Source of the DNA: Paramecium tetraurelia
Lineage: Eukaryota
Assembly: GCA_000165425.1 (NCBI GenBank)
Contig: CT868274.1
Span: 62,001-126,000, forward strand
Length of the DNA stretch: 64,000 nucleotides
Reading direction: 5' to 3'
Position numbers and translations under genes: made by a program. Below the pieces are notes generated by a model that did no database searches, was not told the DNA's origin, and saw only the letters and a list, made by a program, of their open reading frames with translations. Of this stretch, positions 4,863 through 35,445 are shown one piece after another (positions within the stretch are counted from its first letter, which is position 1; the number at the start of each line of letters is the position of its first letter).

Positions 4863-4880
4863 ATAATTTTAATATTATTT

Positions 4881-5920
4881 ATGGAAGAAGAAAAATCAGA
4901 TTAAGTAACGATTGAGCCCTTATTCTTTCCATCAAAAGAGAACGAATAAAAGCTAATTCAATTTCTCTCCCAAGCCAAATCATACATCCGTATCTGTGTT
5001 TACACATTCACCAATAAAAACATTGTTGCCAAAATGTTGTAGATGATGAAAGAAAATCCTAATCTTAAAATACAAGTCATCACTGATGATGCTTAGACCA
5101 AGATACCCTCATAAAAAGCTATTCTGGATTAGATATTGGAAGAAGGAAAGGGCTAGGTAATTCATTAGCGTTATATTTTTCTCAGGCTGAAATCAAACTT
5201 GACAATTCAACAGTTAGTTTGATGCATAATAAATATCTAGTGATTGACACAGATTATATTGCTACAGGTTCTTTTAACTGGACTAAGTCTGCAGTTACAA
5301 CCAACAAAGAAAACTTACTATTAATTAAAAGTAAGAAACTTGTGCAATAATTTGATGAAAACTTCTAATAACTATGGAAAGACTTTCAATTCATGAACGA
5401 CAGAATTCTATAATAACAACAAGAAGAAATTGATAAAGCAGAACGTTAGAAATTAAAAGCAGAAAAACTAGCTGAATAGGCTGCAAAAAAGGCAGAACAA
5501 GAAGCAAATGCTGACCCTAATAATCCAAATCCCACACCAACAGAACCATAAACCAAACCTAAAAAAGCTCCCAAAGAACCCAAACCACCTAAAGAACCTA
5601 AACCTCCTAAGGAACCCAAACCTCCTAAAGAGCCAAAACCACCAAAAGAACCTAAACCACCTAAACCTCCTAAACCTACTAAAGAACCTAAACCACCCAA
5701 GGAACCTAAACCCCCCAAGGAACCAAAACCCATTAAGCAAAAAATTAGAAAGGTCGCCTAACCTAAGAAAAAGAGGGAAAGTTAAGAGGATGAAGATTTT
5801 AGTGATGATGGAGAGGAAGTCGACGTTTAGAATGATGTCGAAGATGATGATGACGATGTTGCAGAGGAGGAAGATTCAATGGAAGACTTTTTAGCAGAAG
5901 ATGATTCTGAATGTGATTGA
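4881..5920 (+). CDS. Single-HKD phospholipase D superfamily protein (Zucchini/PLD6/Nuc-like) with Pro/Lys repeat and acidic tail
   Basis: MHNKYLVIDTDYIATGSFNWT (HxKxxxxD...GSxN) at 5222-5284; upstream IRICVYTFTN and VITDD, downstream NKEN; 29-nt intron 5157-5185; 336 aa. Confidence 0.9.
5570..5731 (+). repeat. Coding tandem repeat, 9 x 18 nt, encoding PKEPKP
   Basis: Units such as CCTAAAGAACCTAAACCT; differences are mostly at third codon positions. Confidence 0.95.

Positions 5921-31910: not shown

Positions 31911-35445
<3,535 letters not shown>

What the first reader, a model, noticed from the sequence alone, without database searches (positions are those of the whole stretch)
4881..5920. 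Anchorless Zucchini/Nuc-like PLD enzyme with PKEPKP repeats, NLS-like motif and acidic tail: candidate nuclear nuclease
Seen: one HKD domain starts within ~12 residues of the Met, with no hydrophobic N-terminal anchor or Cys/His zinc wing. It is followed by a helix, 9 PKEPKP units, PKKKR (5762-5776) and a D/E-rich C-terminus. Known: single-HKD proteins (bacterial Nuc, Zucchini/PLD6) are homodimeric nucleases or cardiolipin hydrolases, and animal Zucchini is anchored to the mitochondrial outer membrane for piRNA processing. Inference: basic repeat plus NLS plus acidic tail suggests a chromatin-associated or autoinhibited nuclease. It could act in small-RNA processing or in degrading eliminated DNA or the old macronucleus. 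I know of no description of this architecture, but could not search.
Basis: partly seen in the sequence, partly recalled or inferred. Interest (0 to 1): 0.72.

Follow-up and report, generated by a model that had tools for sequence, protein, structure and literature searches.

The report
Unanchored Zucchini-like enzyme in a ciliate
This is a real, expressed ciliate gene for an enzyme related to the animal piRNA nuclease Zucchini; it lacks the mitochondrial anchor and carries a conserved charged tail that may steer it to nucleic acids in the nucleus, but its location and job are untested.

Summary
4881-5920 (+) is a two-exon, 336-aa gene (code 6, 29-nt intron), expressed well above its neighbours. 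It has one intact HxK(x)4D(x)6GSxN motif, no N-terminal anchor and no zinc wing, then a long helix, 9 PKEPKP-type units, PKKKR and an acidic end. Its closest solved relatives are mouse/human Zucchini/PLD6, ahead of Nuc. The tail is under strong purifying selection between whole-genome-duplication paralogues (dN/dS about 0.03), and the repeat occurs only in this pair.

The anchorless, wingless state is not special: 95 of 98 single-HKD relatives lack the wing and 94 lack an N-terminal hydrophobic segment. Charged tails recur, some with CaaX or C-terminal membrane anchors, so the tail does not prove a nuclear location. The Tetrahymena relative keeps a basic tail but not the repeat or acidic end. 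Best reading: a soluble dimeric single-strand nuclease, probably nuclear (0.4). A role in DNA elimination or scnRNA turnover is possible but unsupported (0.15). Ten literature searches found no description.

The parts
4881..5156 (+). Exon 1 (residues 1-92): 14-residue acidic N-terminus without anchor, FFP motif (4923-4931) joined directly to the first helix (no zinc wing), first half of the PLD domain
5157..5185 (+). 29-nt phase-0 GT-AG intron; same position in L001 (26 nt) and L032 (23 nt)
   Evidence: indirect read support only
5186..5920 (+). Exon 2 (residues 93-336 and TGA)
5225..5311 (+). Catalytic motif H106-x-K108-x4-D113-x6-G120-S121-x-N123 and conserved E134
   Evidence: matches the invariant columns of the 30-protein family alignment (compared by eye)
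5390..5509 (+). Charged helix continuing the last PLD helix (residues 161-200)
   Evidence: dN/dS 0.026
5570..5731 (+). Nine PKEPKP-type units (7 exact), residues 221-274; no predicted helix or strand
5732..5776 (+). Basic patch ending in PKKKR (5762-5776), NLS-like; PKKKK in the paralogue
5777..5917 (+). D/E-rich C-terminus (residues 290-336, net charge -28); no CaaX, no transmembrane segment

Best explanation
A soluble, homodimeric Zucchini/PLD6-family nuclease that works in the nucleus. SHOWN: an intact single HKD site, no membrane anchor at either end, expression, and strong selection on both domain and tail. FROM FAMILY KNOWLEDGE: two subunits form one active site in a groove (PMC5714352 passages). 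RECALLED: one His106 attacks the phosphodiester to form a phosphohistidine, the partner His protonates the leaving group and activates water; the reaction is metal-independent, prefers single strands and leaves 5'-phosphate/3'-OH ends. INFERRED: the long helix projects a disordered tail; the basic repeat and patch (net +19) bind nucleic acid or chromatin and carry the import signal; the acidic end (-28) folds back on them and damps activity. The likeliest job is general turnover of RNA or single-stranded DNA, not necessarily tied to sexual development.
For: Family profile ranks mouse Zuc 4ggj (4.5e-43) and human PLD6 9lkx (2.6e-41) above Nuc 1byr (1.3e-20); exon 2 alone gives the same order. 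In the 54-row tree all 11 Nuc-like bacterial rows lie on the other side of a 98% branch. No anchor, so no built-in route to cardiolipin. KH-PLD fusions occur in P0229 and P0290, P0292, P0293 (Thecamonas) and P0296, and an HhH fusion in the two-HKD P0136. dN/dS: domain 0.023, repeat 0.027, basic patch 0.031, acidic end 0.16. The repeat pattern has 10 matches in the genome, all in these two genes, with 0 for the control. The nearest relatives P0262, P0124 and P0167 all have long basic C-tails. Of 16 non-PLD proteins retrieved through the tail, 3 have a Pfam family, and these are HMG box, uracil-DNA glycosylase and Myb (anecdotal).
Against: Activity and location are untested. PLD6 is reported to be both a cardiolipin lipase and a nuclease (PMC12837048 passages), and no sequence test here separates the two. 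8 of 98 relatives end in CaaX and 4 have a C-terminal hydrophobic segment; 4 of the 17 with acidic+basic tails are CaaX proteins. P0262 ends in a weakly hydrophobic, lysine-flanked segment resembling a tail anchor (KD 1.12). Loose NLS motifs are common here (15 of 43 frames). The PLD domain itself is neutral (net -1). The link to the P0124/P0167 group appears (96%) but not. Tail dS is near saturation and repeat register is ambiguous, so tail dN/dS values are rough.
Confidence: 0.4

Rival explanations
1. A cytosolic nuclease: same chemistry, but the tail binds RNA or RNP granules in the cytoplasm (RNA turnover, or salvage of prey-derived nucleic acid).
For: KH fusions point to RNA; animal Zucchini acts on the cytosolic face of mitochondria (PMC13269885 and PMC9935688 passages); expression is steady in 3 of 3 poly(A) libraries of one study; NLS-like motifs are common.
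Against: The PKKK[RK] motif is kept in both paralogues under strong selection and is found in only 1 of 43 window frames.
Confidence: 0.25
2. A peripheral-membrane phospholipase (MitoPLD-like): the polybasic repeat replaces the lost anchor by binding acidic lipids, and the enzyme makes phosphatidic acid.
For: PLD6 hydrolyses cardiolipin as a dimer (PMC12837048 passages); relatives carry CaaX or C-terminal hydrophobic anchors (8 and 4 of 98); databases name the Ichthyophthirius and Thecamonas members 'mitochondrial cardiolipin hydrolase' (names by similarity, no test shown); the FFP-to-His spacing is 91 here against 83-86 in most wingless members, so the substrate loop differs.
Against: No anchor or lipidation signal; the whole protein is acidic (-11) with a -28 end; nucleic-acid-binding fusions occur in the family.
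Confidence: 0.2
3. One reading: a nuclease induced in the sexual cycle that degrades excised germline DNA, old-macronucleus nucleic acid or macronucleus-matching scnRNAs.
For: How MAC-scnRNAs are degraded is stated to be unknown (PMC11724296 passages); the genome has four PLD6-like pairs, including fast-evolving and catalytically dead ones.
Against: No stage-resolved expression was obtained. The reported scnRNA decay is 3' trimming, a poor fit to a Zucchini-type endonuclease. An Oxytricha survey of development-specific nucleic-acid-binding proteins does not mention PLD in its main text. Similar proteins are widespread outside ciliates (Thecamonas, Amoeboaphelidium, bacteria).
Confidence: 0.15

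Closest known systems
Zucchini / PLD6 / MitoPLD (mouse 4ggj, human 9lkx, fly 4gel)
   Same: Single HKD with GSxNWT..A..xN.EN, the FFPS motif before the first helix, best PDB matches; same side of the tree as zinc-wing members.
   Different: No N-terminal transmembrane anchor; no zinc wing (the model jumps from FFPS straight to the helix); about 7 extra residues before the His; a 176-residue helix + basic repeat + acidic C-tail.
Bacterial Nuc (1byr) and H. pylori NucT (6ehi)
   Same: Minimal wingless single-HKD fold; dimeric nucleases (PMC5714352 passages).
   Different: Lower scores; Nuc-like bacterial rows form a separate branch; NucT has a signal peptide and is periplasmic, this protein has none.
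Uncharacterised protist PLD6-like proteins (Tetrahymena utriculariae KAL4480802.1, Ichthyophthirius EGR32047.1, Furgasonia, Thecamonas KNC55567.1, Amoeboaphelidium KAI3634924.1)
   Same: Wingless, N-anchorless, FFP-type single HKD; often charged tails. T. utriculariae is the nearest named relative (44% identity) and also starts directly with the PLD domain.
   Different: Most have an extra N-terminal region of 80 or more residues (87 of 98 have 30 or more residues before FFP). The tandem PKEPKP array with a C-terminal acidic end was seen only in this gene pair; others carry scattered KxPK units, N-terminal acidic blocks, CaaX, hydrophobic C-ends or KH domains.

Membership tests
PLD superfamily, single-HKD (PLDc_2) | HxK(x)4D(x)6GSxN motif, once per chain | tested here: met
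   H106-N123, one match; PLDc_2 over cut-off in both exons
Zucchini/PLD6 clade | Closer to Zuc/PLD6 than to Nuc by sequence and tree | tested here: met
   (quick trees, SH-aLRT only; solved animal sequences were not in the tree, only unnamed zinc-wing rows)
Animal Zucchini/MitoPLD proper | N-terminal transmembrane anchor to the mitochondrial outer membrane | tested here: not met
   max KD19 0.78; FFP at residue 15; upstream stop 18 nt before ATG; same in L001 and L032
Animal Zucchini/MitoPLD proper | Cys/His zinc wing after FFPS (feature recalled) | tested here: not met
   only C39, C335 and H106; FFP-to-His gap 91 against 105-108 in winged rows
Animal Zucchini/MitoPLD proper | Single-strand endonuclease activity, piRNA processing, cardiolipin hydrolysis | not testable with these tools
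   needs biochemistry and RNAi
Single-HKD PLDs | Homodimer forming one active site | not tested
   inferred from PMC5714352 passages; no complex prediction was run
Bacterial Nuc/NucT | Exported protein, grouping with Nuc-like sequences | tested here: not met
   no hydrophobic leader; outside the Nuc-like branch
Nuclear protein with classical monopartite NLS | Functional basic import signal | tested here: inconclusive
   motif present and conserved in the paralogue, but loose motifs are common; no matching motif by the regex in P0262

The most novel reading that the evidence does not exclude
A nuclear, soluble Zucchini: ciliates, which use Piwi-bound small RNAs to edit their genomes, have moved a PLD6-family nuclease from mitochondria to chromatin through a self-inhibiting basic-repeat/acidic tail. 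It clears excised germline DNA or macronucleus-matching scnRNA complexes during development, possibly regulated by heterodimers with the catalytically dead paralogue pair found in the same genome.
Probability: 0.15. Interest if true: 0.8.

Novelty: new variant of a known kind. Interest (0 to 1): 0.45.

Why it matters
Zucchini is treated as a mitochondria-anchored animal piRNA enzyme, and databases label protist relatives 'mitochondrial cardiolipin hydrolase' by similarity. The retrieved relatives show a large wingless, N-anchorless branch with varied targeting (KH fusions, CaaX, hydrophobic C-ends, charged tails), which bears on whether the family began as a nuclease or a lipase. This member lies in a ciliate where RNAi and GFP tagging are routine (recalled) and where the route of scnRNA degradation is an open question (PMC11724296), so one localisation experiment and one double knock-down would settle most of it.

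Tried and rejected
Missed upstream anchor exon: rejected. Artefact or pseudogene: rejected (expression, dN/dS 0.055 overall). Standard-code reading: gives only shadow ORFs over the repeat. Nuc-like origin: not favoured. The window protein and its paralogue were not listed in the protein collection, so no source name was obtained. Metagenome scan: 1 of 80 loci was a close orthologue (L032), cut off before the tail. No RNA holder was listed on record; this blank is not evidence. These unseen supplements could decide the expression and location questions. ESM Atlas gave only PLDc_2 clusters (0.91-0.93, one Ciliophora cluster; best 0.85, lead only). Earlier scan findings: none. The careful tree did not finish; the quick tree stands in. 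No structure of the whole spliced protein, no fold search and no complex prediction were run.

Full report
Setting. The window is AT-rich ciliate DNA read with NCBI code 6. The genome has 72.09 Mb in 697 contigs. With 23-29-nt introns and syntenic duplicate genes this points to a Paramecium aurelia-group macronucleus, probably P. tetraurelia (inference; PMC11724296 gives 72 Mb for its MAC genome). I did not map the locus to a gene ID.

The gene. One GT-AG intron, 5157-5185, is the only one in the tested range that yields an open frame: 336 aa from 4881 to 5920. Both exons match Pfam PLDc_2. The active-site motif H106-K108-D113-G120-S121-N123 and E134 are intact and agree, by eye, with the 17 invariant columns of a 30-protein family alignment. 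There is no anchor (KD19 maximum 0.78) and no zinc wing (only C39, C335, H106). The upstream gene ends 18 nt before the ATG. The paralogue L001 (19 nt) and a syntenic orthologue from a metagenome contig, L032 (11 nt), have the same short start and intron position, so the N-terminus is real. In three poly(A) libraries of one study, stage unknown, depth over 4901-5900 was 8-52, 15-89 and 21-99, against 0-6 in the nine bins upstream to 4800 and 0-3 downstream; all reads agreed with a + strand transcript and 5' ends piled at 4883 and 4890. No splice joint was listed; the dip, the read ends at 5153 and a contig leaving at 5157 support the intron only indirectly.

The tail. An alignment-free model of exon 2 gives one helix over protein residues 142-200 and no helix or strand beyond (mean pLDDT 65.7, pTM 0.30). 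Then come 9 PKEPKP-type units (7 exact), a basic patch ending in PKKKR (5762-5776) and an acidic end; net charges are +19 (201-289) and -28 (290-336). Against the paralogue (89% identical, 8 units, PKKKK) dN/dS is 0.023 in the domain, 0.026 in the helix, 0.027 in the repeat, 0.031 in the basic patch and 0.16 in the acidic end; tail dS is near saturation, so those values are rough. A DNA pattern for the 11-residue repeat matched 10 places in the genome, all in these two genes, with 0 for the reversed control. The tail is thus selected, not drift.

Family. A profile of 9 rows (7 protist-like proteins plus the two exons) ranks mouse Zucchini and human PLD6 far above Nuc and NucT in the PDB; exon 2 alone gives 4.1e-12, 4.4e-11 and 9.3e-9 for mouse, human and Nuc, while exon 1 alone was weak and ranked NucT first (0.009). 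The profile found 2,048 representatives at E<=1e-30, of which the best 150 were examined. Among all fetched proteins I kept those with exactly one canonical motif and an FFP 70-125 residues upstream, after dropping 15 cluster duplicates or fragments: 98 rows including this gene and its paralogue. Three have a wing-length insert (a fourth flag, P0004, is false on inspection), 4 have an N-terminal and 4 a C-terminal hydrophobic segment, 8 end in CaaX, 17 have both acidic and basic tails (4 of them CaaX), and 16 have at least one KxPK. The sample is biased: the seeds were found through the tail's words and animals are under-sampled. Named members are Tetrahymena utriculariae (P0262), Ichthyophthirius, Furgasonia, Thecamonas and Amoeboaphelidium; most have no name. 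KH fusions (P0229; P0290, P0292, P0293, P0296) and an HhH fusion (two-HKD P0136) favour nucleic-acid substrates. Two bacterial proteins fall inside the PLD6-like branch.

Trees. In a 154-row quick tree (144 columns, LG+G4) the pair joins P0262 at SH-aLRT 89, unstarred. In a hand-picked 54-row tree (mixture model, quick search because the careful one did not finish) the three Paramecium-type rows join P0262 (94) and then P0124/P0167 (96), and the 11 Nuc-like rows are separated at 98. The P0124/P0167 link is absent, so it is model-dependent. P0262, P0124 and P0167 have C-tails of 123-191 residues that are basic but not acidic; P0262 has no KxPK and ends in a weakly hydrophobic segment.

Paralogues. 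The genome holds four PLD6-like pairs: this one; L003/L004 and L005/L006 with intact HKD on long branches (L005 lacks the 5' part); and L014/L015, which keep the FFP start and a PLDc_2 match but have lost the catalytic His and Lys.

Mechanism. Most likely a soluble dimeric nuclease with a shared active site in a groove (PMC5714352 passages) and phosphohistidine chemistry (recalled), preferring single strands like Zucchini. The basic tail would bind nucleic acid and carry the import signal, and the acidic end would damp it, an arrangement recalled from HMGB1. Odds: nuclear general nuclease 0.4, cytosolic nuclease 0.25, membrane lipase 0.2, development-specific nuclease 0.15. The lipase reading stays alive because PLD6 has both activities (PMC12837048 passages) and several relatives are membrane-targeted. 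Three of 16 non-PLD proteins retrieved through the tail have Pfam families, all DNA-acting, which is anecdotal support for the nucleus.

Literature. Ten full-text searches (listings and abstract openings seen) returned no paper describing a ciliate or protist Zucchini/PLD6 in the rows shown. Passages read: PMC5714352, PMC12837048, PMC11724296, PMC13269885, PMC9935688, PMC2628886; term searches without PLD hits: PMC5312943 and 10.1101/2025.04.24.650466 (main text) and supplements of PMC13092971, PMC10066578, PMC10711438. The library lacks most subscription papers, and the expression and proteomics tables that could decide location and timing could not be read.

Verdict. Observation confirmed; interpretation partly supported. 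A new variant of the Zucchini/PLD6 kind that fails the anchor and zinc-wing tests for animal Zucchini proper, within a broad and apparently undescribed anchorless branch. It is easy to test and could matter, but the nuclear and developmental claims rest on the tail alone. Interest 0.45.

Noticed in passing
L014 (G000:C682:204879-205268) and L015 (G000:C22:158059-158448): A paralogue pair with the FFP start and a PLDc_2 match but without the catalytic His and Lys and without a tail: candidate pseudo-enzymes that could heterodimerise with active PLD6-like proteins.
   Followed up: partly
L003 (G000:C32), L004 (C46), L006 (C391): Fast-evolving single-HKD PLD6-like paralogues without introns in the domain, with K/R/Q-rich C-tails and short acidic ends; long branches in the tree.
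   Followed up: partly
L005 (G000:C347:56438-56614): A 98%-identical 1,068-nt copy of the L006 gene that lacks the 5' part including FFP: a truncated duplicate or an assembly feature.
   Followed up: partly
P0126, P0142, P0145, P0154, P0158, P0166, P0178, P0193: A group of unnamed PLD6-like proteins ends in CaaX boxes, suggesting prenylation as another way to reach membranes.
   Followed up: no
P0229, P0252, P0290, P0292, P0293 (Thecamonas), P0296: KH-PLD6 fusions scattered over the tree (Pfam KH shown for five; P0252 judged by eye), implying RNA-directed members outside animals.
   Followed up: partly
window 4863-4880: Only 18 nt separate the upstream gene's stop from this ATG (19 and 11 nt in L001 and L032), so the promoter must overlap the upstream gene or lie within this gap.
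   Followed up: no
window 34426-34517: 21-nt tandem repeat (4.4 copies, 92% matches) encoding a 7-residue N/Q/Y/R-rich unit in an open + strand frame.
   Followed up: no
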